DNA of 52,968 nucleotides, from IMG/VR virus record IMGVR_UViG_3300030329_000759, positions 1 to 52,968 of that record. The stretch is one strand, 5' to 3'. The notes under the pieces are model-generated. The model was given only the letters and a program-made list of their open reading frames with translations. It made no database searches and was not told where the DNA came from. Positions 101 to 15,051 of this stretch are shown one piece after another. Source of the DNA: a virus. Lineage: Duplodnaviria > Caudoviricetes. The position numbers and the translations under genes were made by a program. Each line of letters begins with the position of its first letter. Position 1 is the first letter of the stretch.

Positions 101-2753
101 TGCAGAAAAAACAGTAAAAGAATTTGAGAAAAAAATAAATAAAGGTAAATCTGTTACAAATAAAGATCCTGCATTAAAAGAGTTAGAAAGACAGTTAAGT
201 AAAACAGATGAGCAAATAGCTAAAGTTTATAATGCAGACCCTAATGCTGGAAGACTTGTAATTGATAAATTATCTACAGAAAAAAACAAGTTACTTCAAT
301 CACAAGTACACAATAAATTATTTCCTGTAGCTGTTAGAATTGCAGGACATATAATAAAATCTGATCCTACAACTTATGTTCCTAAAATAGATAGATCAGG
401 AAAAGCAAAAATACTTGTAGGTGGTAAGCTAAAAAATATATCTACTGCTGTAAATGAAGTTATAGGAAATTTAGGAAAACTAGATGCTTTAACAATAGAA
501 CAAGCTGCTGTAAGAGCAGGTGTTGATCCTGATACTTACACAAAAAGTGTACAAAATAATTTGTTAGATGTTTTAAAAAAGTATGACATAACACCAGAAG
601 AATTTTCTAAAGCAATGAACACTTCAGTTTCTGATAGTGCAAAAATATTTCAGCCATATTCTTATGTGTCAAATTTAACTAGGGCTATGGCAGGTACAGA
701 TAAAAAAGCTAGAGAGTTTATGGAAACTGTTTATACTGAACAATTTAATGCTTCACCAGTTTCTACAATTTTTAATGCTTTTCATACTCTAGAAAGAACT
801 TCTAAAATTTGGGTAACTTCTGCATTGTCTACTACTAGTTTAAATGTTATGGGTGGTCTAGGTGCATTAACAATGAAAACAGCAGCTAATGTTTTTGAAT
901 CTATATTTCAAAGAGCAATTAGAGGAGTTGCTGTTTCTATGGGAGCAGATCCTACAGTTTTAAAAATACAAGAACCAAAATCTATAGGGGATATATTTGC
1001 TACATGGGGCAAACTTGCTAACTACGGAATGACATCTTTAGAAGCTGATGCAATATTAAAGTTTAACCCTACTATTAAAAATAGATTAATAAACACTCTT
1101 GCTATTGGTGAAGGAGAGGATAAACTAAATGCAGTAAATAGATTTTTAGCATCTTTAAATTTAGCTCAAGATGCTCTTTTTAGAAAGTCTGCTTTTGTAG
1201 CATCAGTAGAATCAGAATTAAAATATTTAGGAAAAGATTTATATAAAGATTATTTAAAAAATGATATTCCTATTCCAAAAGAGGTATTAGAAAAAGCAAC
1301 TGAAGATGCTATGAGAGCTACTTTTTCATTTCAATTTGGTGCAAATAAAAGTGCTAAAATAGATGACACAATAATTGAAGCTAGAGGTAATAATATTGCA
1401 AGGGGCTTTATTAATTTTTTTGAAAACACACCATTTGTTTCTTTAGCTATCGCCTTCCCTAGATTTATGGCCAATGCTATTAACTATCAATATAGATTTA
1501 GTCCTATAGGTGGAGCATCAGGTATGTATGACACCTTATCAGGGTTATTGGGAAAAAGATACTTTGGTGTTGGAGGAAAATTAACAGATGATCAAAGAGC
1601 AGCCTTAATAAAAAAAGGAACAGAGGCTACTGCTAGAGGTGCTGTAGGTAGTACTGCACTTTACATGGCATATCAATATAGGATGCAACCTGAAAACAGA
1701 AGCAGAGATTGGTGGGATCTAAAAATAGGAGATGCTACATTTGATGCTAGAGCTTTTTTTCCTGTAGCACCTTACTTTGCAATGGCAGAATTACTTATTC
1801 GTATGTTTGACTTGGCAAAAGATTCGGATGTAAAAACTTTAGATACTAGTGTAGAAGCAGTTTTAGAATCTGTAGCTGGTTTAAAAGCAAAAGATTTAGA
1901 TTTATTTCCAGATTCTTTATTAAGGGCTTTTCAAGACCTAAAAGATGGTACTTTTTTTGAAATGGGATTAACAAGATTTGCAGAAACATTTTTTAATTTT
2001 GGTGGTAGATTTTTACAACCTATAAAACCTATAAGAGAGTACCTTGATGGATTAAGTTATGAAGGTTTAATGGCTAGAGATCCTAAAGATATAGATGTAG
2101 ATATTTATACAGGAGAAAAAGATGGAAATGTTTTAATAGAATCTCTTAGCAATCAAGTTAAAAATAAATTACCTGATGTGGTTGATAATTATGGAAAAGA
2201 TAGTTTAGAAAAAGCAGTATCATACTTTAGACAAGGAGCACCATCAGGGGCAGGTAGATTTTATAGTAATTTTATGGGTATTAAAATGACTCCAGATCAA
2301 AATAAAATTGAAAAAGAAATTACAAGATTAGGTATAGTACCTTGGAGAATGGAGGTATATAAACCCATAGGTATAAAAGCATTTGATAATGTTGTGATCT
2401 CTAATGGATTATATTTTATGGAAAATGAAGTTCTTAATTTAATGAAAACAGAAACTTATAAAAAATCTACTGACAATACTAAAAAAAGATTATTAAAAAA
2501 AGAGATTAGTAAAGCTTTTACTAGTGCAAAAGATAGATTAAAAATAGATGGTGTAGATAAAAGAGATGGATCTGTAATATCAGAAGACTTAATAAAACTT
2601 AACAATTATATAGATTATAAACAACTAAGCAAAGCATTAAGAAAAGAAATAGAAGAAAAGTATCAACAAATGCATCCTGAAAATAAAGAATTAAGTGAAA
2701 CAAAAGAGTTTGGAAAAGCCTTAATGATAAAAGATAGTTTAATTAATCTTTAA
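1..2753 (+). CDS. C-terminal part of large internal virion/ejection protein (joins 51587-52868; ~1344 aa total)
   Basis: The ORF listed at 66 is in frame with upstream FDKSNIVLRGVVTGALGGVSTLPG, which continues from the ORF starting at 51587; last gene of the structural arm. Confidence 0.8.
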   Translation, partial: FDKSNIVLRGVVTGALGGVSTLPGIFFSKELKNAEKTVKEFEKKINKGKSVTNKDPALKELERQLSKTDEQIAKVYNADPNAGRLVIDKLSTEKNKLLQSQVHNKLFPVAVRIAGHIIKSDPTTYVPKIDRSGKAKILVGGKLKNISTAVNEVIGNLGKLDALTIEQAAVRAGVDPDTYTKSVQNNLLDVLKKYDITPEEFSKAMNTSVSDSAKIFQPYSYVSNLTRAMAGTDKKAREFMETVYTEQFNASPVSTIFNAFHTLERTSKIWVTSALSTTSLNVMGGLGALTMKTAANVFESIFQRAIRGVAVSMGADPTVLKIQEPKSIGDIFATWGKLANYGMTSLEADAILKFNPTIKNRLINTLAIGEGEDKLNAVNRFLASLNLAQDALFRKSAFVASVESELKYLGKDLYKDYLKNDIPIPKEVLEKATEDAMRATFSFQFGANKSAKIDDTIIEARGNNIARGFINFFENTPFVSLAIAFPRFMANAINYQYRFSPIGGASGMYDTLSGLLGKRYFGVGGKLTDDQRAALIKKGTEATARGAVGSTALYMAYQYRMQPENRSRDWWDLKIGDATFDARAFFPVAPYFAMAELLIRMFDLAKDSDVKTLDTSVEAVLESVAGLKAKDLDLFPDSLLRAFQDLKDGTFFEMGLTRFAETFFNFGGRFLQPIKPIREYLDGLSYEGLMARDPKDIDVDIYTGEKDGNVLIESLSNQVKNKLPDVVDNYGKDSLEKAVSYFRQGAPSGAGRFYSNFMGIKMTPDQNKIEKEITRLGIVPWRMEVYKPIGIKAFDNVVISNGLYFMENEVLNLMKTETYKKSTDNTKKRLLKKEISKAFTSAKDRLKIDGVDKRDGSVISEDLIKLNNYIDYKQLSKALRKEIEEKYQQMHPENKELSETKEFGKALMIKDSLINL

Positions 2754-2848
2754 CCTGTAGACATATAATAAACATACAGCCCTGCAAACATTGTAGGGTT
2801 TATAGCAGCAATATAAAATGCCATACACCAAAGTATAAATTTAATCAT
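2750..2848 (-). CDS. 32-aa hydrophobic peptide MIKFILWCMAFYIAAINPTMFAGLYVYYMSTG
   Basis: Translated by hand; TAATG coupling to the upstream ORF; fills the gap exactly; not in the ORF track. Confidence 0.55.
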   Translation of the reverse strand: MIKFILWCMAFYIAAINPTMFAGLYVYYMSTG

Positions 2849-3057
2849 TAGAAGTGTTTATTTAAAACGTCTAATCTATCTTCATATGTAGCAATACTAT
2901 CTAACTCCTTTTCTATAGTTTCCATAACATCAGGATGCTCTGCAACACCCTGTGCATTTTCCATTAATACAATTACATTTATTTTATGTTTAGCTATTTG
3001 TCCTTTAGCATGAAAAATTAAAGCTGTTCTTATTTTATCTTTTAAATTAGGCTGCAA
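2848..3057 (-). CDS. Hypothetical protein
   Basis: 69-aa ORF overlapping the nrdB end. Confidence 0.7.
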   Translation of the reverse strand: MQPNLKDKIRTALIFHAKGQIAKHKINVIVLMENAQGVAEHPDVMETIEKELDSIATYEDRLDVLNKHF

Positions 3058-4033
3058 TTTTTTGTTCCTTCTCCTTAGTATCTTTCCATCCCCAATCCCC
3101 TGTCATTCCAGAGGCATTATAATCAGTCACAACACCCTCGAAAAAGTTTTTAAGGGTATCACCCCCTACTATCCAATCTAACCATTCAAGAGGGTTTTCT
3201 TTAACTTTAAAGTTACCTTTTAAACCCAACTGAATTAGTCTTCTATCTGCTATGTATCTAATATAATGCTTGACTTGTTCAGCACTAAGCCCTTTAACTG
3301 CCCCCATCTCAAAGGCTGTATCTACTACAGCATCTTCTAATTTTACCCCATCCCTAAACATTTGATATATATCTTTCTTAAAATCATCTGTAACTATTCT
3401 AGGATGCTCCTTACAAAACTCTCTAAATAATTTAACCATACCCTCACAATGCATGGTTTCATCTCTAACAGACCACTCTACTATCTCACACATACCTTTC
3501 ATCTTGCCATATCTTTGATAGTTAAGAAGCATAGCAAAAGCTGAGAACAAAGACATACCCTCATTCATAACTGACCTAGCTATAGCCTTACCTAATCCTG
3601 ATATAGAATGCACATCTATATCGGACATAAAATCTATCTTGTCTTTCATCTGTTTATAATTTAAAAAAGCTGAATACTCTTCTTCAGGTAAACCTAAAGT
3701 ATCATTTAGTAGTGCATAACTTCTTTGATGTACAAACTCTCTGTTAGTAAAGCTAGTCAGCATGGCTCTAATCTCATTGTTTTTGAATTTCTGTATATAG
3801 TATTCAAGATAATTCGTACCCACAGCTACGTCACTTTGCGTAAACAATCTAAGTATTTGAGTGATATGATTTTTCTCTGCTTCGGTTAACTTACCTGACT
3901 GCCATTGTGACACATCATCTTGCAGTTTGGCTTCCCATTCACCCCAATGGGCTTTCTCAGACTGCACGGCAAACTCTACAGCCCAAGGATATTTAAAAGG
4001 TTTATACACAATTGAGGGATTTGTAAGACTCAT
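3047..4033 (-). CDS. nrdB: Ribonucleotide reductase class I beta subunit
   Basis: Diiron ligands FTQSD, EFVH with radical Tyr (HQRSY), NEG, RDETMH; C-terminal NFFE..V.DY; AAGGAG RBS. Confidence 0.96.
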   Translation of the reverse strand: MSLTNPSIVYKPFKYPWAVEFAVQSEKAHWGEWEAKLQDDVSQWQSGKLTEAEKNHITQILRLFTQSDVAVGTNYLEYYIQKFKNNEIRAMLTSFTNREFVHQRSYALLNDTLGLPEEEYSAFLNYKQMKDKIDFMSDIDVHSISGLGKAIARSVMNEGMSLFSAFAMLLNYQRYGKMKGMCEIVEWSVRDETMHCEGMVKLFREFCKEHPRIVTDDFKKDIYQMFRDGVKLEDAVVDTAFEMGAVKGLSAEQVKHYIRYIADRRLIQLGLKGNFKVKENPLEWLDWIVGGDTLKNFFEGVVTDYNASGMTGDWGWKDTKEKEQKIAA

Positions 4034-4047
4034 ACGTTACTCCTTGG

Positions 4048-4071
4048 AAAAATAAAGGCTCGAATGAGCCT
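4048..4071 (-). terminator. Terminator-like hairpin just upstream of the nrdB RBS
   Basis: AGGCTC/GAGCCT stem with 4-nt loop followed on the minus strand by TTATTTTT. Confidence 0.45.
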
Positions 4072-4121
4072 ATTGATTTTACTAGTTTTATACAAAATTA
4101 AGACTAAAGCAATAAGTATAT

Positions 4122-4379
4122 TTATGTATTTGTATAAATCTCCTCATCTTTTGTAATGTTATTTATGGTTACTTTTTTACTAGATTCTGTCATGTCTTTA
4201 TAATTAAATGTATCACCTAAATTAATTTCATTTAAAATAATTACAATAGATTGCTTTAATTTATATAATTTTTTAGTTCGATTAGAACCCACATATTGTT
4301 TTTCTACCTCATCTAATAATTCTTTTAGTGCTTCTTTAATAAAAAAATTTCTTAAATCCTCATCAATTTCTATTTTCAT
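4122..4379 (-). CDS. Hypothetical protein
   Basis: 85-aa ORF in the operon with RBS. Confidence 0.6.
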   Translation of the reverse strand: MKIEIDEDLRNFFIKEALKELLDEVEKQYVGSNRTKKLYKLKQSIVIILNEINLGDTFNYKDMTESSKKVTINNITKDEEIYTNT

Positions 4380-9698: not shown

Positions 9699-11750
9699 TT
9701 ATATATCTATTTGTTCTAACCAATTGTTTCCTATTTTTGCTTCTAATAATAATGGCACATTAAACTCTATGCCATATTTAGTTTCTAACAACTTAACTAA
9801 ATTCTTTTGCACTTCTTTAATAACATTTTGTATCTCATTAATTTCATCAGGATGTATATCAATTACTATTGAATCGTGTACTGAGTTTACCACAACACTC
9901 TTTAAATGTTTAATACTATTGTATATTTCCACTAAAACCAGGGGTACAATGTCTGCTGTGGCAAATGATTGTACAGGATAATTCTTTATTTGTGTAAAAT
10001 TTGTTACCGATCCGTCCCTTCTCCTCTTAGTATCAGGAAAAGAAAACTCTCTTCCACTAGGTATTTTTATGTATCCATAATTAACTGCTTGATTGGCTAA
10101 TTTTTTATGCCATTTACCTATACCTTTATACTTCTCTAAAAAATGTTCATAATAAGTTGCCTCTGCTCTAGTCCTACCATAGCCTGATGCTCCATATAAA
10201 GGTGCAAATGTATGTGCTTTAGCTACTTGTCTAGTAGTAGGTTGTCCTGCATCACTTATTACTTTAGCAGTATAGGCGTGTACATCAAACCCCTCAGTCA
10301 CTTCCTTGATTGCTGTAGAATCTTGACTGAGAAAAGCTGCAACTCTAAATTCTAATTGTGCAAAGTCAGCCTCCATAATTTTGCCCCCATCAAATCTAGA
10401 TACAAATACTTTTTTGACAGGGAACGTTGAACCTCTAGGCATGTTTTGCATATTAGGATTAGAGCCTGAGAATCTACCTGTAGATGTTACATGTTGATTT
10501 AATTTTACATGTAGAAAATCATCCTCTTTTAAAAAGTTTTCGATGCCATCTACAAAGTTAGACAGATAACTAGTAATAGCAGACAATCTTCTCAATTGTC
10601 CTAAAAAAGTTTTAGCCTCGTCCATACCTTTAGTAGAGGCAACTCTTTCAAGCACCTCTAAATTACTTTTAGAAGTAGAAAAACCATTAGCTGATGCCCA
10701 CTTTACAGAAGGGGGGCTAAACTTTAGTCCTGCTATGTCTTTCGTTTGTTTATATATAAACCCTGTGCCATTACAAACAGAACACTTAGTGGGTTTTTTA
10801 TAAAGACCTCCTGTTTTTTTCTTTTTAAAATAAGAACCTTTACCTTTACATGAATTACATTGCTCTGCTCTAGTTTTATACAAAGTTTTAAAATTAAACT
10901 TTATTAAATTTTTAAATGCAGGTGTCGGCAGGTTTGGTTGTATAGAAGATGCCCATCTTTTTTTATCTATTGGTTGTCTACTAAATAAAACCCAAGACAA
11001 TTGTTCAGGGCTGCCTAGATTAATTGGGGTATCTCCCATTAAATATCTTGTGTAAGAGTTAAGTTTCTTTTCTAAATCTAACTTCTCTTCTTCAAACTCT
11101 TTTCTTACTTGAGATAATTTATTTCTGTCTATCTTGAATCCTGATTGATACATTCTAGACAGCACTACTGCCACTTCATTAGTAATGTCTATTGTTTTTT
11201 TAAGCCCTTGATTCTCAACATCCGACAATCTGTTTTGTATCTTCTCGTATACCTCCTTGGTCGCACCGAGATCATGTCGGAGGTAGGTTTCAAGTTCGAG
11301 TCTTGGAATTTCTCTTGTGCTATATCCTCTTTTAAAATATTCTTTGAGTGTATCTTCTTTTTTTGTTTCACATTCATATCTTTCTGCTACTGCTTTTAAT
11401 CCTAGTGGATTAGTTACACCCCTTTGTAAAACATACTCTGCCAACATAGTATCAAATACTTTACCCTCGTATTTAAACCCACTCTCCCACAACCATAACA
11501 GATCATGGGAAATATTATGTCCAATTAACAGAGTAGCTTGATCTAAATAGCCCTGAACAGCATAGTAATTAGATATTGGATCGTCTTCTCTAGTAACACC
11601 CACATGGTCGAAAATATAAGTGGATGAATCCTCAGAACCCAATGGGTAAATACCAACCATAACCAAAGCATTTGTCCTCTCGAATGGATCAAGATGTAAC
11701 TTATTGTTTTTAGTGGTTGTTGTGTTTTCAACATCTATTATTAATTCCAT
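9699..11750 (-). CDS. polA: Family A DNA polymerase with 3'-5' exonuclease and DnaJ-type zinc-finger insertion
   Basis: ExoI DVE, GHNISHD; motif A DFAQLE; motif B KAHTFAPLYG (Phe762 equivalent); motif C VHDS; two CxxCxGxG repeats. Confidence 0.96.
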   Translation of the reverse strand: MELIIDVENTTTTKNNKLHLDPFERTNALVMVGIYPLGSEDSSTYIFDHVGVTREDDPISNYYAVQGYLDQATLLIGHNISHDLLWLWESGFKYEGKVFDTMLAEYVLQRGVTNPLGLKAVAERYECETKKEDTLKEYFKRGYSTREIPRLELETYLRHDLGATKEVYEKIQNRLSDVENQGLKKTIDITNEVAVVLSRMYQSGFKIDRNKLSQVRKEFEEEKLDLEKKLNSYTRYLMGDTPINLGSPEQLSWVLFSRQPIDKKRWASSIQPNLPTPAFKNLIKFNFKTLYKTRAEQCNSCKGKGSYFKKKKTGGLYKKPTKCSVCNGTGFIYKQTKDIAGLKFSPPSVKWASANGFSTSKSNLEVLERVASTKGMDEAKTFLGQLRRLSAITSYLSNFVDGIENFLKEDDFLHVKLNQHVTSTGRFSGSNPNMQNMPRGSTFPVKKVFVSRFDGGKIMEADFAQLEFRVAAFLSQDSTAIKEVTEGFDVHAYTAKVISDAGQPTTRQVAKAHTFAPLYGASGYGRTRAEATYYEHFLEKYKGIGKWHKKLANQAVNYGYIKIPSGREFSFPDTKRRRDGSVTNFTQIKNYPVQSFATADIVPLVLVEIYNSIKHLKSVVVNSVHDSIVIDIHPDEINEIQNVIKEVQKNLVKLLETKYGIEFNVPLLLEAKIGNNWLEQIDI

Positions 11751-12993
11751 TTACTCTCTCTCCTATCCATTTAACAACAGGCACAGCCATGCTATTACCT
11801 AATGCTTTATACCTATGTCCATCAGGTGTGTGAGGTCTATTGTCATAAGGTATCTCAGTATATCCACATGGAAACCCTTGTAGTCTTTCACATTCTACAG
11901 GAGTTAAACGTCTAATTACTGACTTTTGATGGACATAATTTGTTTGTCTTGCCCCAGAATCTGCCGACAAAGATCCAGATATACTTCCATCTTCTCCTAT
12001 ATAACGAACTTCATCACGTTGATTCTGTTGAAAAATCTTTGGTTCTTGAGCCTCATATACAATAGGAGTGTCTGTCATATTTTCCCACCTTGCTTTCATG
12101 GTAGGGGATGTTTGCTCAGTATCTCTGTATCGTGCATCTTTAGCACGAGCTTCATATACAACAGCATGAACATCTGTTTTAGTTAAGGTGTACATGGTAT
12201 TGTCCTCAGATGCACCTACTCCATTTGGTCCAGCTTTCTCACTTCTGCCAATTAGATTACCTTGAATAGAAACAGGTACAAATCTAGGACAATCCGAGTT
12301 AATATGTTGATCTTCTAAACCCATCTTATCTCCATACCTAGCATCAAGTGTGTTACTTATTCTCGCAGGCCACCTGTTGTCTGTAGTAGAGCTTCCTCTA
12401 GTTTCTTTGGTAGTGTCTTTCCCCTTTTGTCTGCTCTCCTCAGTATCCCTCGACAGGCTTTCGGACTCAAAGAGTATCTCTGCTGCACTTCTCCAGTCCC
12501 CTGAAGAACATCCAACAACAAAGACTCTTTTACGTCTTTGGGGTACTCCGAAATATTGAGCATCCAAAGTTCTGTAGGCGAACCCATACCTGATTTCTTG
12601 AATCGCCCTGATGAAGGAGCTAAAGTCTTTTCCTTTGTTAGAGGACAAAACTCCAGGGACATTTTCCCAGATGAAATATTTGGGTTTAAAGTGGTCAAGT
12701 AATCCAATATAGGTGAGGGCAAGGTTTCCTCTTGGGTCTTCAAGTCCTTTCCTAAGTCCTGAGATACTGAACGATTGGCATGGTGTTCCTCCAATGATAA
12801 GGTCAACTGGTTCATTTATATTCCACTCCTTGTAGTTAGTCATGTCACCTAGATTAGGTACGTTTGGGTAATGATGCTTCAGAACAGCAGACGGAAACTT
12901 ATCTACCTCAGAAAAACCTAAAGGATTCCAACCTAGATTTTTCCAAGCTACAGTAGCTGCCTCTATTCCTGAACAAACTGATATGTAGTTCAT
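11728..12993 (-). CDS. DNA (cytosine-5) methyltransferase
   Basis: Motif I CSGIEA, IV GTPCQSFS, VI ENVPG, VIII PQRRKR, IX RRLTPVECERLQGFP, X ALGNSMAVPV. Confidence 0.95.
   Translation of the reverse strand: MNYISVCSGIEAATVAWKNLGWNPLGFSEVDKFPSAVLKHHYPNVPNLGDMTNYKEWNINEPVDLIIGGTPCQSFSISGLRKGLEDPRGNLALTYIGLLDHFKPKYFIWENVPGVLSSNKGKDFSSFIRAIQEIRYGFAYRTLDAQYFGVPQRRKRVFVVGCSSGDWRSAAEILFESESLSRDTEESRQKGKDTTKETRGSSTTDNRWPARISNTLDARYGDKMGLEDQHINSDCPRFVPVSIQGNLIGRSEKAGPNGVGASEDNTMYTLTKTDVHAVVYEARAKDARYRDTEQTSPTMKARWENMTDTPIVYEAQEPKIFQQNQRDEVRYIGEDGSISGSLSADSGARQTNYVHQKSVIRRLTPVECERLQGFPCGYTEIPYDNRPHTPDGHRYKALGNSMAVPVVKWIGERVNGINNRC
12357..12815 (-). CDS. Overprinted alternative-frame ORF, M.EcoHK31I beta-polypeptide-like
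   Basis: 152 open codons inside the MTase on the same strand; GGA 5 nt upstream of the ATG; LSPKACRGILRRADKRGKTLP motif recalled from MTase-overlapping ORFs. Confidence 0.65.
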   Translation of the reverse strand: MNQLTLSLEEHHANRSVSQDLGKDLKTQEETLPSPILDYLTTLNPNISSGKMSLEFCPLTKEKTLAPSSGRFKKSGMGSPTELWMLNISEYPKDVKESLLLDVLQGTGEVQQRYSLSPKACRGILRRADKRGKTLPKKLEEALLQTTGGLRE

Positions 12994-14210
12994 GCTGAAT
13001 ATACTCCTGTATGAAAGTCAAACTCACAATTAACAATCCTATGAACACCTGATATTTTATTTTTGACTATGTTTAGATACCTTAGTCCATCATCTTCAGT
13101 CTGATCGTTCATAGGGGGATTCCTAGCAATAAGAATCATAAGATCCGACTCCCCTGCTAGACCTGTTTTACTACCCTCAATCATGGCTTGTGATAAAACA
13201 ATCTTACCCTCTGCCTCTGCCGATAGTTGAGTGCAATAAACAACTAAACAGCCATACATTTTGCCTATGTTTCTAGCATAAATAGCATTGGCTTTTAATA
13301 CTTCATGGTTGTTGGTGTTAGATCCCTCTTCAGAAAACTTACTACCAATGTCCATGACAACTATGTCAGGCGAGTAGCTTTTTATAACTGCCTCTGCCCA
13401 AGACATAGTTTTTCCTGTAGCATCTAGGAATTTTAATTTATCTTTTATGGGGTCATAAAGTCTATGTGCCTCTGTCTTATCTTTTACAATTTGATTCATG
13501 GTCATGCCTGTGCAAGCAGTCATGTATCTAGCTGCAATTCTCTCAGGCTTTTCCTCATTGCATAAAATAAGAATCCTAGCACCTTGTTTAGCCCAACCAT
13601 TAGGACTAGCACAAAGGGTTGCATGGAAACTAGACTTACCTACATTTGATCTAGCACCTATGACAAACAGCATTCCATTGTCTAATCCATTCACACCTTG
13701 AAACAAAGAGGGAATGTTAAACTGCCATCTAGTATTACTACTTGCACTAGCTATCAATCCCTCAATAGTGTTGTCAATAAAATCTGTTTTTATTCTAGGT
13801 ATAAAATTATCTTGATGGTTTTCTAAAATATCTTTTAGTGGCTCAAGTGTAGTGACATCCCCATTGACATATTGAAAACCGAGATTGGCTACCAACTCTC
13901 CGACATACTGTCTATTAAGACTAGAAAGTAAATCATCTGCAACGTCTACACCTATGGCAGTTGCAGTTTCTATTTGCTTAAAAAATAAATTAAATTGTTG
14001 CTTCTGAGATGTTGTTAATGTGGGATGTGATGTAAAGAATAAACCTTTGACTTCTTCTAACTCTAGGTCACGTTGATAACTATCCATAGCATCATCTATA
14101 ACCTGTTTAATTTTTTTAATATCTTTTGTGAATAAATTGTTTGAACATCTCCCTTTTAATGAATCATAAAAATCTTTACTTAGTAAACTCTTTATTAGTG
14201 AATGTTCCAT
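12990..14210 (-). CDS. DnaB-like (SF4) replicative helicase
   Basis: Walker A GARSNVGKS, NEE, VVMD, TQLS, IVKNKISG. Confidence 0.9.
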   Translation of the reverse strand: MEHSLIKSLLSKDFYDSLKGRCSNNLFTKDIKKIKQVIDDAMDSYQRDLELEEVKGLFFTSHPTLTTSQKQQFNLFFKQIETATAIGVDVADDLLSSLNRQYVGELVANLGFQYVNGDVTTLEPLKDILENHQDNFIPRIKTDFIDNTIEGLIASASSNTRWQFNIPSLFQGVNGLDNGMLFVIGARSNVGKSSFHATLCASPNGWAKQGARILILCNEEKPERIAARYMTACTGMTMNQIVKDKTEAHRLYDPIKDKLKFLDATGKTMSWAEAVIKSYSPDIVVMDIGSKFSEEGSNTNNHEVLKANAIYARNIGKMYGCLVVYCTQLSAEAEGKIVLSQAMIEGSKTGLAGESDLMILIARNPPMNDQTEDDGLRYLNIVKNKISGVHRIVNCEFDFHTGVYSA

Positions 14211-15051
14211 TAAATGCCTCTATTGTATTTTTTATAAATGTAACGTCTGCTAATTTTCTGTACTTAATATCATCTGTTAATTTCAAAGCTAATACTTTCA
14301 CTCCATGTGATTTTAATATTTTTGTGTACTCAATTGTTTTCTTAGCTGCATCAGGATCAAGAGCAACTATAACCCTTTTAAAGTGTTTAAGTGCTTGTAT
14401 GTGATGTATGTTCATGGAAGTACCTAGTATGGCTACACCTGTAGCACCAAGAGTTTCTATAACACAGGCACTCACAACATCCTCTACAACTATACCTAGC
14501 TTGTGTTGCCCTCGAACAAAACCCTCTGCATAATTACCATACCTTTTCCATTTAGGAATGACATTATCATCTACTGCTCTGCCAACAGCATCTACTAACT
14601 TGCCGTTATCTTCTACAGGAAAAACAATCCTACTCTCTTTAACGTCATAGTGTAAATTAAGATCCTTTGCCCACAGTCCATACCTCTCACAAAATTCAGT
14701 CACAACTGCATACGGATTGTAAGTAACATTGCAATCATTAACATGTTCATAATCATAATTTAACAGGGGTCTGACATGATCAGGTAAAGAAAAAATATCA
14801 GTGTTAATTCTGTTTAGATCGTCCGACTTTTCTATTTTAAAATCTTGCATTCTTTTTCTTATTTCCTCGGCTGACATAAGTATGGTTTTAGCACCTGACA
14901 GAGAACAACTATTAGCATAGCAATTCCATATCAGCTTTCCCATATTGTTGGTTGCAGTAAAGGTGTTAGACCTATTACACTCAGGACATTTACCCCGGAA
15001 TTTCTGTCCGTCAGATAAGTCTAAGTCCTCTACATACCTAAGTACGTTCAC
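14176..15051 (-). CDS. DNA primase
   Basis: N-terminal CPEC...C...C zinc finger; TOPRIM VVED...ALDPDA. Confidence 0.9.
   Translation of the reverse strand: MNVLRYVEDLDLSDGQKFRGKCPECNRSNTFTATNNMGKLIWNCYANSCSLSGAKTILMSAEEIRKRMQDFKIEKSDDLNRINTDIFSLPDHVRPLLNYDYEHVNDCNVTYNPYAVVTEFCERYGLWAKDLNLHYDVKESRIVFPVEDNGKLVDAVGRAVDDNVIPKWKRYGNYAEGFVRGQHKLGIVVEDVVSACVIETLGATGVAILGTSMNIHHIQALKHFKRVIVALDPDAAKKTIEYTKILKSHGVKVLALKLTDDIKYRKLADVTFIKNTIEAFNGTFTNKEFTK

What the first reader, a model, noticed from the sequence alone, without database searches (positions are those of the whole stretch)
12357..12815. Overprinted gene inside the cytosine methyltransferase
Seen: a 152-codon same-strand alternative frame stays open across motifs IV-VIII despite the AT-rich genome, and has an ATG with a short upstream GGA. 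Established: M.EcoHK31I is a heterodimer whose beta chain is encoded in an alternative frame inside the alpha gene and supplies motif IX. From recall, KM...SS....SGM....W..N..E.P here resembles that beta chain. Unusually, the main frame already has motifs IX and X, while the overprinted ORF lacks IX. Inference: a retained accessory subunit with a function other than supplying motif IX, or an evolutionary intermediate.
Basis: partly seen in the sequence, partly recalled or inferred. Interest (0 to 1): 0.72.

Follow-up and report, generated by a model that had tools for sequence, protein, structure and literature searches.

The report
Hidden gene inside phage cytosine methyltransferase
A second, unannotated protein of about 150 residues is encoded in a shifted reading frame inside a phage DNA cytosine methyltransferase gene, and the same hidden gene is kept in hundreds of related genes, including dmt of phage P1.

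Summary
ORF 12357-12815 (-), 152 codons, lies in the +1 frame of a 421-aa C5-methyltransferase gene (11728-12993, -).

It is far beyond chance. Synonymous shuffles expect 7.0-9.6 stops in that stretch, and 0 of 20,000 shuffles had none.

It is conserved. All 80 viral loci found through the main-frame protein carry it. In 39 of 40 non-redundant homologues there is no +1 stop between its start and motif VIII: 1 stop observed against 147 expected.

The C-terminal block (LSxKACxGILRRAxKRGKxLPxxLxxAL) is 0.9-1.0 conserved where the main frame is 0.23-0.85. Codon periodicity switches to the inner frame there, and main-frame synonymous sites are suppressed.

The ORF also sits, unannotated, in P1 dmt, mycobacteriophage Omega gp127 and phages of Vibrio, Roseobacter and Ruminococcus. 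It also sits in the 80 bacterial-genome loci examined, always in the +1 frame of a methyltransferase gene.

No Pfam, NCBIfam or PDB relative was found. A complex prediction supports docking onto its own methyltransferase (ipSAE 0.83, best control 0.00), with a stated artefact risk. It is not an M.EcoHK31I-beta-like supplier of motif IX. Translation is untested.

The parts
11728..12993 (-). Host gene: C5 cytosine DNA methyltransferase, 421 aa, with motifs I-X in one frame. It sits in a replication module between a DNA polymerase A gene (9699-11750) and a helicase-like gene (12990-14210).
   Evidence: ORF list. Pfam PF00145, E 8e-59. phrog_116, E 1.2e-89. TIGR00675, E 4.7e-57. AF2 model confident for residues 1-180 and 355-421, with pLDDT below 50 for 188-351.
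12357..12815 (-). Overprinted inner gene in the +1 frame, 152 aa, ATG start and TAA stop.
   Evidence: Shuffle tests expect 7.0-9.6 stops and 0 of 20,000 shuffles had none. 253 database proteins at E <= 1e-3. A homologous +1-frame stretch in 80 of 80 viral loci.
12826..12831 (-). AAGGAG, a Shine-Dalgarno-like site 10 nt upstream of the inner ATG. It is built from main-frame codons Lys55-Glu56 of the conserved YKEW.
   Evidence: Sequence. AAGGAG occurs in nt 150-185 of 49 of 63 unique homologous genes, although the window's long ORFs prefer AAA (711) over AAG (202) and GAA (453) over GAG (210). The context TAYAAGGAGTGGnnnnn(A/T)TG is shown.
12375..12524 (-). Conserved C-terminal core of the inner protein, residues 98-147 (SLLLDVLQGTGEVQQRYSLSPKACRGILRRADKRGKTLPKKLEEALLQ). 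It contains two predicted helices (118-131 and 137-147) and overlaps the main frame from strand beta7 into the variable linker after motif VIII.
   Evidence: From main codon 175 on, inner-frame column conservation is 0.9-1.0 at the named block positions against 0.23-0.85 in the main frame. For main codons 174-203, nucleotide entropy is 1.29 at main codon position 1, 0.73 at position 2 and 0.60 at position 3. pLDDT is 83-94.
12576..12602 (-). Inner-protein residues 72-80 (FKKSGMGSP). The model pairs them as a strand with the edge strand of the methyltransferase (main residues 137-142).
   Evidence: Lowest-error contacts. The strand at main residues 137-144 is seen in the AF2 model of the enzyme alone. 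Caveat: these partner residues are encoded by the same nucleotides.

Best explanation
The ORF is a genuine second protein-coding gene, overprinted in the +1 frame on the catalytic-domain coding region (motifs IV-VIII plus the following linker) of one clade of phage and prophage C5 cytosine methyltransferases.

Shown by comparative sequence analysis (my odds about 0.93):
- The frame is kept open.
- It has a conserved start codon.
- It is under amino-acid-level purifying selection. In its last 50 or so codons this selection overrides the main frame.

Inferred: ribosomes start independently at the internal ATG, or TTG in some homologues, behind an AAGGAG built from main-frame codons. They make a protein of about 150 residues that is largely disordered alone, apart from a C-terminal two-helix module.

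Inferred (my odds about 0.55): the product is an accessory subunit that folds on its own methyltransferase. In the model its middle part adds a strand to edge strand beta6. The conserved faces of its two helices pack against the post-motif-VIII helix, the start of the target-recognition region and the motif IX segment, that is, at the junction of the large and small domains.

What binding would do is not known. It could stabilise the enzyme, assemble it, tune its activity or add DNA contacts through the RRAxKRGK stretch.

The gene was probably born de novo inside this methyltransferase clade. No free-standing copy and no relative in any curated family was found.
For: Openness:
- In the window's gene, 0 of 20,000 synonymous shuffles had no stop, with 7.0 or 9.6 stops expected.
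- All 80 viral loci retrieved with the main-frame protein have a homologous +1 stretch, and 77 of 80 are open for 152 codons or more.
- Among 40 representatives below 85% main-frame identity, 39 have no +1 stop between the inner start and motif VIII. In total 1 stop was observed against 147.0 expected.

Selection on the inner frame:
- At main codons 175-202 the block LSxKACxGILRRAEKRGKxLPxxLxxAL is 0.9-1.0 conserved, while the main frame is 0.23-0.85.
- Codon periodicity flips there. Entropy is 1.29 / 0.73 / 0.60 at main codon positions 1 / 2 / 3, against 0.61 / 0.42 / 1.51 upstream and 0.62 / 0.37 / 1.54 at motifs IX-X.
- Third-position entropy at conserved four-fold sites is 1.07 inside the overlap (n = 31) against 1.85 (n = 13) and 1.82 (n = 15) outside, Mann-Whitney p 3.4e-10.
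- In five close relatives, third-position differences are 0.05-0.07 in the overlap against 0.17-0.20 upstream and 0.21-0.39 downstream.

Start signal: a start codon sits at nt 175 or 178 in most of the 63 unique genes, and AAGGAG lies upstream in 49 of 63.

Breadth:
- 253 predicted proteins of similar length match.
- 115 of 50,697 phage records match. These include P1 dmt, Omega gp127, Vibrio phage 1.009.O, Roseobacter phage CRP-821 and Ruminococcus phage NatCom_28775. In all five that I inspected the match is in the +1 frame of the methyltransferase.
- In species-representative bacterial genomes, 565 of 600 pattern matches were confirmed. In 80 of the 80 best, the match is in the +1 frame of a C5-methyltransferase gene.

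Link to the enzyme:
- ipSAE is 0.83 / 0.81 / 0.83 in three runs and the best of 3 controls is 0.00. This mark was reached by 58 of 80 solved complexes and 2 of 110 mismatched pairs. The runs agree in at least 61% of contacts and partner pLDDT is at least 72.
- The interface residues on the two helices (120-121, 123-124, 127-128, 131, 135-136, 138-139, 142-143) are the invariant or nearly invariant ones.
- Partner pLDDT is 73-74 with the enzyme and 52 with an unrelated chain.
- Natural proteins fuse the inner product in frame to the methyltransferase C-terminal half: P0121, P0122, P0123, P0125, P0127, P0128, P0133 and P0135, and locus L151.
Against: - There is no direct evidence of translation. 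No proteomic or ribosome-profiling data were examined.
- Alone, the product is predicted to be mostly disordered: mean pLDDT 57.8, and only about residues 110-147 are confident.
- The complex prediction has a specific weakness. I gave the two alignments in the same row order and they share nucleotides, so trivial covariation between a residue and its co-encoded partner could seed contacts. The best-scored strand pairing (main 137-142 with inner 74-80) is centred exactly on co-encoded residues. On the other side, main 183-206 and 94-107, which are co-encoded with inner-protein interface residues, are not in the interface.
- The fusions may be frameshifted pseudogenes. The four 567-aa proteins are 97-98% identical, so they count as one event.
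- P1 and the Vibrio and Ruminococcus phages have shorter forms that start after motif IV and differ in the 'strand' segment. P1 has no clear Shine-Dalgarno site.
- Only 8 of 201 sampled Pseudomonadota genomes carry the ORF, against 113 of 201 with any PF00145 gene, so most C5 methyltransferases work without it.
- At the distance of L011, third-position difference in the overlap (0.34) is not clearly below upstream (0.36).
- The homologous loci are not phylogenetically independent.
Confidence: 0.6

Rival explanations
1. A real overprinted gene whose product works independently of the methyltransferase, for example as a small nucleic-acid-binding regulator or a host-directed factor. Under this reading its position inside the methyltransferase gene only records where it was born.
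For: All the coding evidence applies equally. The basic RRAxKRGK helix could bind nucleic acid, which is my inference. Overprinted viral proteins are often accessory and disordered, as review PMC8227390 describes (abstract and passages seen). The product is mostly disordered alone. The complex score may be inflated by shared-nucleotide covariation.
Against: The ORF was never found detached from a methyltransferase gene: 80 of 80 viral loci and 80 of 80 bacterial loci. Overprinting itself would also explain that. Fusions to the methyltransferase C-terminal half recur. The conserved helix faces coincide with the predicted interface. There was no hit to PADLOC defence models or to any family that would suggest another role.
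Confidence: 0.3
2. The conserved block is used as the tail of a frameshifted isoform. Ribosomes translating motifs I-VIII would slip to +1 near motif VIII and end in ...KRGKxLPxxLxxAL, so no separate protein is initiated.
For: The strongest inner-frame constraint is confined to the last 50 or so codons. The N-terminal part varies, and it is shortened in P1 and in the Vibrio and Ruminococcus phages.
Against: The +1 frame is also kept free of stops for the 92 codons upstream of motif VIII in 39 of 40 representatives, with 1 stop against 147.0 expected. A slip near motif VIII would not require that. A start codon at a fixed place with AAGGAG upstream is conserved. I saw no slippery site, but I did not search for one systematically.
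Confidence: 0.05
3. Not a gene. On this reading the open frame and its conservation are by-products of main-frame amino-acid constraint, codon bias, or a constraint at the RNA or DNA level.
For: Part of the inner-frame conservation over motifs IV-VIII is forced by the invariant main-frame residues. For example, inner G50 derives from main W109-E110. In GC-rich homologues an open +1 frame is not significant on its own: P is 0.1-0.5 for several genes at 55-65% GC.
Against: Shuffles that keep the protein and the codon usage never reproduce the open frame in the AT-rich genes. In the C-terminal block the main frame is variable while the inner frame is invariant, and variation concentrates at inner-frame third positions. 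That is the signature of protein coding, not of a nucleic-acid motif.
Confidence: 0.03
4. A homologue of the M.EcoHK31I beta chain, that is, a small subunit that supplies a conserved methyltransferase motif missing from the large chain.
For: The gene layout is the same: a small ORF wholly inside the methyltransferase gene in another frame (passages of PMC2836561).
Against: Beta carries motif IX, which alpha lacks (passages of PMC2836561). Here the main frame has motifs IX and X and the inner product has neither. A profile of the inner family finds no solved C5 methyltransferase; the only row is an O-methyltransferase at E 1.1. It finds no Pfam family at E <= 1.
Confidence: 0.02

Closest known systems
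M.EcoHK31I alpha/beta heterodimeric C5 methyltransferase, with beta encoded in another frame inside the alpha gene
   Same: A small ORF lies entirely within a C5-methyltransferase gene on the same strand in another frame. The small product is proposed to act together with the large one (passages of PMC2836561).
   Different: Beta supplies motif IX, which alpha lacks, and is required for activity. Here the large chain is complete (motifs I-X) and the inner product has no methyltransferase motif. The inner ORF overlaps motifs IV-VIII and the linker. No sequence kinship could be tested.
De novo overprinted genes of viruses (for example tymovirus p69 over the replicase methyltransferase domain, phiX174 overlapping genes)
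   Same: It is a long alternative-frame ORF with a narrower distribution than its host gene. Its product is largely disordered. Its best-conserved part lies over a poorly constrained part of the older frame. Synonymous change in the older frame is suppressed. (PMC8227390, abstract and passages seen.)
   Different: It is found in double-stranded DNA phages and prophages across several bacterial phyla, inside a DNA methyltransferase. It is also predicted to bind the product of the very frame it overlaps.
Out-of-frame HNH endonuclease hidden in actinophage methylase genes (ShiLan element)
   Same: It is another unannotated alternative-frame ORF within a phage DNA methylase gene (PMC11855218, abstract and passages seen).
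   Different: That element is a mobile insertion encoding a recognisable homing endonuclease. The ORF here is not an insertion. It is written over the conserved catalytic motifs themselves and has no known domain.
PHROG family phrog_16143 (139-position profile, labelled 'DNA methyltransferase')
   Same: 34 of 39 inner-frame products match it, with a best E of 1.1e-13. The window's product matches at E 4.4e-6. Gene callers have therefore already produced such proteins from phage genomes.
   Different: The label appears to come from the locus. The products carry no methyltransferase domain: no Pfam or NCBIfam hit. That the family is an overlapping reading frame is my inference, and I did not see it stated anywhere.

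Membership tests
M.EcoHK31I-type alpha/beta C5 methyltransferase | The small chain is encoded wholly inside the large-chain gene in a different frame. | tested here: met
   ORF 12357-12815 lies inside 11728-12993 on the same strand, offset +1.
M.EcoHK31I-type alpha/beta C5 methyltransferase | The small chain carries motif IX and the large chain lacks it. | tested here: not met
   The main frame has RRLTPVECERLQGFP and GNSMAVPV. R361, L363, P365, E367, G399, N400 and S401 are invariant in 39 homologues. The inner product has neither motif. The beta property is taken from passages of PMC2836561.
M.EcoHK31I-type alpha/beta C5 methyltransferase | Sequence similarity of the small chain to M.EcoHK31I beta. 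| not testable with these tools
   No tool returned the beta sequence, and sequence from memory is not admissible.
M.EcoHK31I-type alpha/beta C5 methyltransferase | Both chains are required for methylation. | not testable with these tools
   This needs a knock-out of the inner frame by main-frame-silent changes followed by a methylation assay.
Overprinted (overlapping) protein-coding gene | The alternative-frame ORF is longer than chance allows, given the host protein and its codon usage. | tested here: met
   0 of 20,000 shuffles had no stop. 1 stop observed against 147.0 expected over 40 homologues.
Overprinted (overlapping) protein-coding gene | Purifying selection acts on the alternative frame, seen as suppressed synonymous change in the host frame and alternative-frame codon periodicity. 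| tested here: met
   A formal two-frame dN/dS model was not run.
Overprinted (overlapping) protein-coding gene | Its distribution is narrower than that of the host gene family, marking it as the novel frame. | tested here: met
   8 of 201 genomes have the inner-frame profile against 113 of 201 with PF00145. 115 phage records match the inner product against 1,877 for the main protein. No free-standing copy was found in 160 loci.
Overprinted (overlapping) protein-coding gene | The product is translated. | not testable with these tools
   Only indirect signs exist: a conserved start codon and AAGGAG upstream.
C5 cytosine DNA methyltransferase (PF00145), applied to the host gene | A full-length match to the family profile above its cut-off. 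| tested here: met
   200.1 bits against a cut-off of 22, residues 1-414 on profile positions 1-322 of 324.
C5 cytosine DNA methyltransferase (PF00145), applied to the inner product | Any match to the family profile or to solved C5 methyltransferases. | tested here: not met
   0 Pfam families at E <= 1. 0 NCBIfam families. The PDB profile search found only a chance row at E 1.1. Foldseek's best E was 3.5.

The most novel reading that the evidence does not exclude
A large clade of phage and prophage C5 cytosine methyltransferases, including Dmt of phage P1, may in fact be two-protein enzymes. Their small subunit would have been born de novo in the +1 frame of the catalytic-domain coding sequence and would now be a required structural part of the enzyme. 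On this reading the gene has evolved to encode, from the same nucleotides, both a strand of the enzyme and the partner strand that docks on it.
Probability: 0.4. Interest if true: 0.9.

Novelty: new variant of a known kind. Interest (0 to 1): 0.8.

Why it matters
Long same-strand overlapping genes are rare and disputed in double-stranded DNA phages and bacteria, and annotation pipelines discard them.

Here the comparative evidence is unusually clean. The ORF is about 150 codons long. It is kept open across homologues with as little as 32-37% main-frame identity to the window's enzyme. In one block it dominates the host frame.

The case is also easy to test, because the ORF is present in phage P1, a standard laboratory phage of E. 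coli.

If the product is a subunit of the enzyme it overlaps, two things follow:
- A widespread class of 'orphan' phage methyltransferases has been studied and expressed without recognising a second component.
- The locus would be a natural example of one DNA stretch encoding two interacting proteins. That is relevant to how new proteins arise and to the design of overlapping genes.

It also shows that one PHROG family labelled 'DNA methyltransferase' is probably an alternative reading frame.

Tried and rejected
- Homology of the inner product to known families found nothing useful. Pfam and NCBIfam gave no hit at E <= 1. PADLOC gave none. The PDB profile search gave only a chance O-methyltransferase row at E 1.1. 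Foldseek against PDB had a best E of 3.5 on a low-confidence model. The ESM Atlas returned only unnamed 'hypothetical protein' clusters, mostly viral.
- I recalled that the block LxDILE...YYLSxKA resembles the segment that follows motif VIII in canonical C5 methyltransferases, and considered that the inner product supplies it in trans. No search supports this. In addition, the block overlaps strand beta7 rather than lying downstream of it. It stays an untested recollection.
- I looked for a free-standing (non-overlapping) copy and found none in 80 of 80 bacterial loci. These were only the best 80 of 565 confirmed matches.
- A locus search for the 567-aa fusion protein P0135 in viral contigs found nothing. 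The four 567-aa proteins turned out to be 97-98% identical, so they are one lineage and not independent fusions.
- My first region-based stop count used an alignment column in the variable linker as its end point, so it ran past the inner stop codon in many homologues. I replaced it with a count anchored on motif VIII.
- Six literature searches found no paper describing this ORF. Papers outside the held library and all supplementary files were not seen.
- Two queries could not be made. The cluster-member look-up for NCBI names of the inner-frame proteins was switched off. I therefore do not know whether GenBank names any of them.
Full report
**What is there.** The window is a whole virus record of 52,968 bases, estimated 99% complete. 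On the minus strand a replication module runs primase (14176-15051), helicase-like gene (12990-14210), a 421-aa ORF (11728-12993) and DNA polymerase A (9699-11750). The 421-aa ORF is a C5 cytosine methyltransferase: PF00145 at E 8e-59 over residues 1-414, phrog_116 at E 1.2e-89, and TIGR00675 at E 4.7e-57.

It spans 12357-12815 on the minus strand, starts with ATG and has 152 codons. It begins 178 nt after the outer ATG, which puts it in the +1 frame. It overlaps main-frame residues 60-212, from just before motif IV to about 50 residues past motif VIII. The motif names are assigned from my knowledge of the family. The main frame also carries motifs IX and X, and the inner product has neither.

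**More than chance.** The +1 frame of the gene has 24 stops, and none lies within nt 178-633. The +2 frame has 47 stops and never stays open for more than 32 codons. Permuting synonymous codons within the gene gives a mean of 7.0 stops in the stretch. Drawing codons from the window's own usage gives 9.6. In each test 0 of 20,000 shuffles had no stop.

**Conservation, tested without selecting on the inner frame.**
- I fetched relatives with the main-frame protein only. Of 90 pattern matches, 86 were confirmed and 80 were kept.
- All 80 loci give a tblastn hit to the inner product in the +1 frame of the methyltransferase (E 1e-12 to 1e-95). The open stretch is 152 codons or more in 77 of 80. One has 108 codons (L068) and two are cut by the contig end (L070, L074).
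- For codon-level work I dropped nine loci. Seven were 3'-truncated (L009, L035, L055, L062, L068, L070, L074), L051 had a frameshifted N-terminus, and L075 was mis-extracted. That left 63 unique genes, the window's included, and 40 representatives below 85% main-frame identity.
- Between the inner start and motif VIII, an anchor that aligns unambiguously, 39 of 40 representatives have no +1 stop. In total 1 stop was observed against 147.0 expected from synonymous permutation.
- In GC-rich members the test is weak for any single gene, with P of 0.1-0.5.

**Selection on the inner frame itself.**
- At main codons 175-202 the inner frame reads LSxKACxGILRRAEKRGKxLPxxLxxAL with column conservation of 0.9-1.0. 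The main frame there is only 0.23-0.85 conserved, and its third positions do not vary at all among sequences sharing the commonest residue.
- Nucleotide entropy by main codon position is 0.61 / 0.42 / 1.51 upstream of the overlap and 0.62 / 0.37 / 1.54 at motifs IX-X. It becomes 1.29 / 0.73 / 0.60 in this block. Variation has moved to the third position of the inner frame.
- At four-fold sites whose residue is at least 80% conserved, third-position entropy is 1.07 inside the overlap (n = 31). Outside it is 1.85 (n = 13) and 1.82 (n = 15), with Mann-Whitney p of 3.4e-10.
- In five close relatives of the window, third-position differences are 0.05-0.07 in the overlap, 0.17-0.20 upstream and 0.21-0.39 downstream.
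- In the more distant L011 this crude measure shows no clear suppression: 0.34 in the overlap against 0.36 upstream and 0.48 downstream.
- These loci are not phylogenetically independent, and I ran no formal two-frame dN/dS model.

**Start signal.** In most homologues a start codon sits at nt 175 or 178 of the main gene. It is ATG in most genes and TTG in others (19 of the 39 representative homologues), including all those at 55% GC or more that start at nt 175. The context is TAYAAGGAGTGGnnnnn(A/T)TG. AAGGAG is present in 49 of 63 unique genes. It is built from Lys-Glu codons that the window's genome otherwise disfavours: AAA 711 against AAG 202, and GAA 453 against GAG 210. In the window AAGGAG is at 12826-12831, 10 nt before the ATG.

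**Breadth.**
- The inner product finds 253 predicted proteins of 83-266 aa at E <= 1e-3 among 281 candidates. Nearly all are unnamed or 'hypothetical'.
- A tblastn search of 50,697 phage records finds 115 records, against 1,877 for the main protein.
- I inspected five records: P1 dmt (a 162-aa ORF, L081 2222-2710), Vibrio phage 1.009.O, Roseobacter phage CRP-821, mycobacteriophage Omega gp127 (a 157-aa ORF) and Ruminococcus phage NatCom_28775. In all five the match is in the +1 frame of the methyltransferase gene and no separate CDS is annotated.
- In Omega the enzyme is naturally split into gp127 (motifs I-VIII) and gp128 (target-recognition region plus motifs IX-X).
- P1 and the Vibrio and Ruminococcus phages have shorter forms that start after motif IV, and P1 lacks a clear Shine-Dalgarno site. 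The universal core is therefore the last 70-100 residues.
In 80 of the 80 best loci the match is in the +1 frame of a C5-methyltransferase gene. These loci come from Acidobacteriota, Pseudomonadota, Planctomycetota, Chloroflexota, Actinomycetota, Nitrospirota and Verrucomicrobiota.
- No free-standing copy was seen.
- In a sample of 201 Pseudomonadota genomes, 8 match the inner-frame profile and 113 have a PF00145 gene. I fetched five of the ten matches behind those 8 genomes. In L170 tblastn finds no inner-frame hit and in L171 only a short one (inner residues 60-95), so neither has the C-terminal block. The block breaks off in L169. In L167 and L168 the block is intact and the stops lie only in the optional N-terminal part.
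- The inner gene therefore marks one clade of the family, is younger than the fold, and was most likely born there by overprinting.

**What the product looks like.** No Pfam, NCBIfam or PADLOC family matches, and no solved structure matches by sequence profile. The ESM Atlas returns only unnamed, mostly viral clusters. PHROGs holds a family of such products, phrog_16143, matched by 34 of 39 members. It is labelled 'DNA methyltransferase', apparently because of the locus. AlphaFold2 with 115 sequences gives a mean pLDDT of 57.8. Residues 1-102 are almost all below 50. Only about residues 110-147 are confident, forming two helices at 118-131 and 137-147. Foldseek finds nothing, with a best E of 3.5. 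The enzyme alone folds confidently at residues 1-180 and 355-421, while 188-351 is below pLDDT 50. The best-conserved part of the inner protein therefore lies over the start of the host frame's poorly determined linker.

**How it most likely works.** Three observations link the product to the enzyme it overlaps.
- It is never found apart from the enzyme. Overprinting alone would also explain this.
- Natural proteins join the inner product in frame to the methyltransferase C-terminal half. Of 19 longer proteins found among 871 candidates, 10 carry PF00145. I read nine of them. Eight (P0121, P0122, P0123, P0125, P0127, P0128, P0133, P0135) have the inner-frame sequence followed by motifs IX and X. 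P0124 is merely an upstream extension. One bacterial locus, L151, shows the same fusion, and L130, L133 and L139 are split or shifted. These may be working split enzymes or recent frameshift pseudogenes. The four 567-aa proteins are 97-98% identical and count as one event.
- The complex prediction of the 421-aa enzyme with the 152-aa product supports binding without showing it. ipSAE is 0.83, 0.81 and 0.83, and the best of 3 controls is 0.00. That mark was reached by 58 of 80 solved complexes and 2 of 110 mismatched pairs, counts that hold only roughly with my own alignments. The runs agree in at least 61% of contacts, and partner pLDDT is at least 72, against 52 with an unrelated chain.

In the model, inner residues 74-80 pair antiparallel with main 137-142, a strand seen in the model of the enzyme alone. 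In my reading of the class I methyltransferase fold this is edge strand beta6. The helix faces formed by the invariant inner residues A120, C121, G123, I124, R127, A128, R131, L135, P136, L139, A142 and L143 touch main 174-182, 207-241 and 357-371, the last being the motif IX segment.

**Caveat that I consider serious.** The two alignments share nucleotides and I supplied them in the same row order. Covariation between a residue and its co-encoded partner is therefore built in, and the strand pairing is centred exactly on co-encoded residues (inner 78 with main 137/138). On the other side, the interface is not the co-encoding diagonal. Main 94-107 and 183-206, which are co-encoded with inner-protein interface residues, are not in it, and motif IX is encoded elsewhere. 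I could not rerun the job.

**Comparison with what is known.** M.EcoHK31I has a beta chain encoded in another frame inside the alpha gene. Beta carries motif IX and alpha carries motifs I-VIII, X and the target-recognition domain (passages of PMC2836561). The layout here is the same, but the defining feature is not met, and kinship could not be tested because no tool holds the beta sequence. The ShiLan out-of-frame HNH element in actinophage methylase genes is a mobile insertion and a different thing (passages of PMC11855218). The general class is viral overprinting (PMC8227390, abstract and passages seen). Six full-text searches found no description of this ORF. Subscription-only papers and supplementary files were not seen.

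**Verdict.** The ORF is a real overlapping gene on evolutionary evidence (my odds about 0.93), widely distributed and unannotated. It is most likely a small accessory protein that docks on its own methyltransferase (my odds about 0.55). It is not an M.EcoHK31I-beta-type supplier of motif IX. Translation and function remain to be shown, and phage P1 offers a direct test.

Noticed in passing
L081 (phage P1, AF234172.1) 2222-2710, inside dmt 1921-4185: The classical phage P1 carries a 162-aa +1-frame ORF inside dmt that ends in ...YFLSSKACAGILRRGEKRRKSLPPLLQMALQSVAKA. It is not annotated in this record. It starts after motif IV, directly behind a TGA, and has no clear Shine-Dalgarno site.
   Followed up: partly
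L084 (mycobacteriophage Omega) 1739-3043: The Omega C5 methyltransferase is naturally split. gp127 carries motifs I-VIII and gp128 carries the target-recognition region and motifs IX-X. Both are annotated 'hypothetical protein'. The 157-aa inner ORF (1914-2387) lies inside gp127.
   Followed up: partly
P0082 (209 aa): This inner-frame protein has an N-terminal extension that reads like a methyltransferase target-recognition segment (IAIQGSMVGRQEKNGPQGSG...TLNTTDKHAVA) in the same frame. That suggests a rearranged or tandem methyltransferase locus. It is unexplained, and the contig could not be fetched.
   Followed up: no
L083 (Roseobacter phage CRP-821) 2392-3085: Downstream of the methyltransferase gene, after one short ORF, lies a 97-aa CDS annotated 'site-specific DNA-cytosine methylase'. 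It may be a fragment or a split part.
   Followed up: no
L072 and L169: In these two loci the inner-frame block breaks off after ...ACRGML or ...ACAGLI into unrelated sequence. In L072 the main ORF is short (279 aa). These look like local frameshifts or decay.
   Followed up: no
L085 (Ruminococcus phage NatCom_28775) 1906-3900: A 656-664-aa CDS annotated 'hypothetical protein' is a C5 methyltransferase with a very long target-recognition region. It follows a ParB-like / N6-or-N4 methyltransferase gene (756-2006).
   Followed up: no
window 11728-11750, 12990-12993 and 14176-14210: The polymerase, methyltransferase, helicase-like and primase ORFs overlap each other by 4-35 nt at their ends. This suggests one translationally coupled replication operon.
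   Followed up: no
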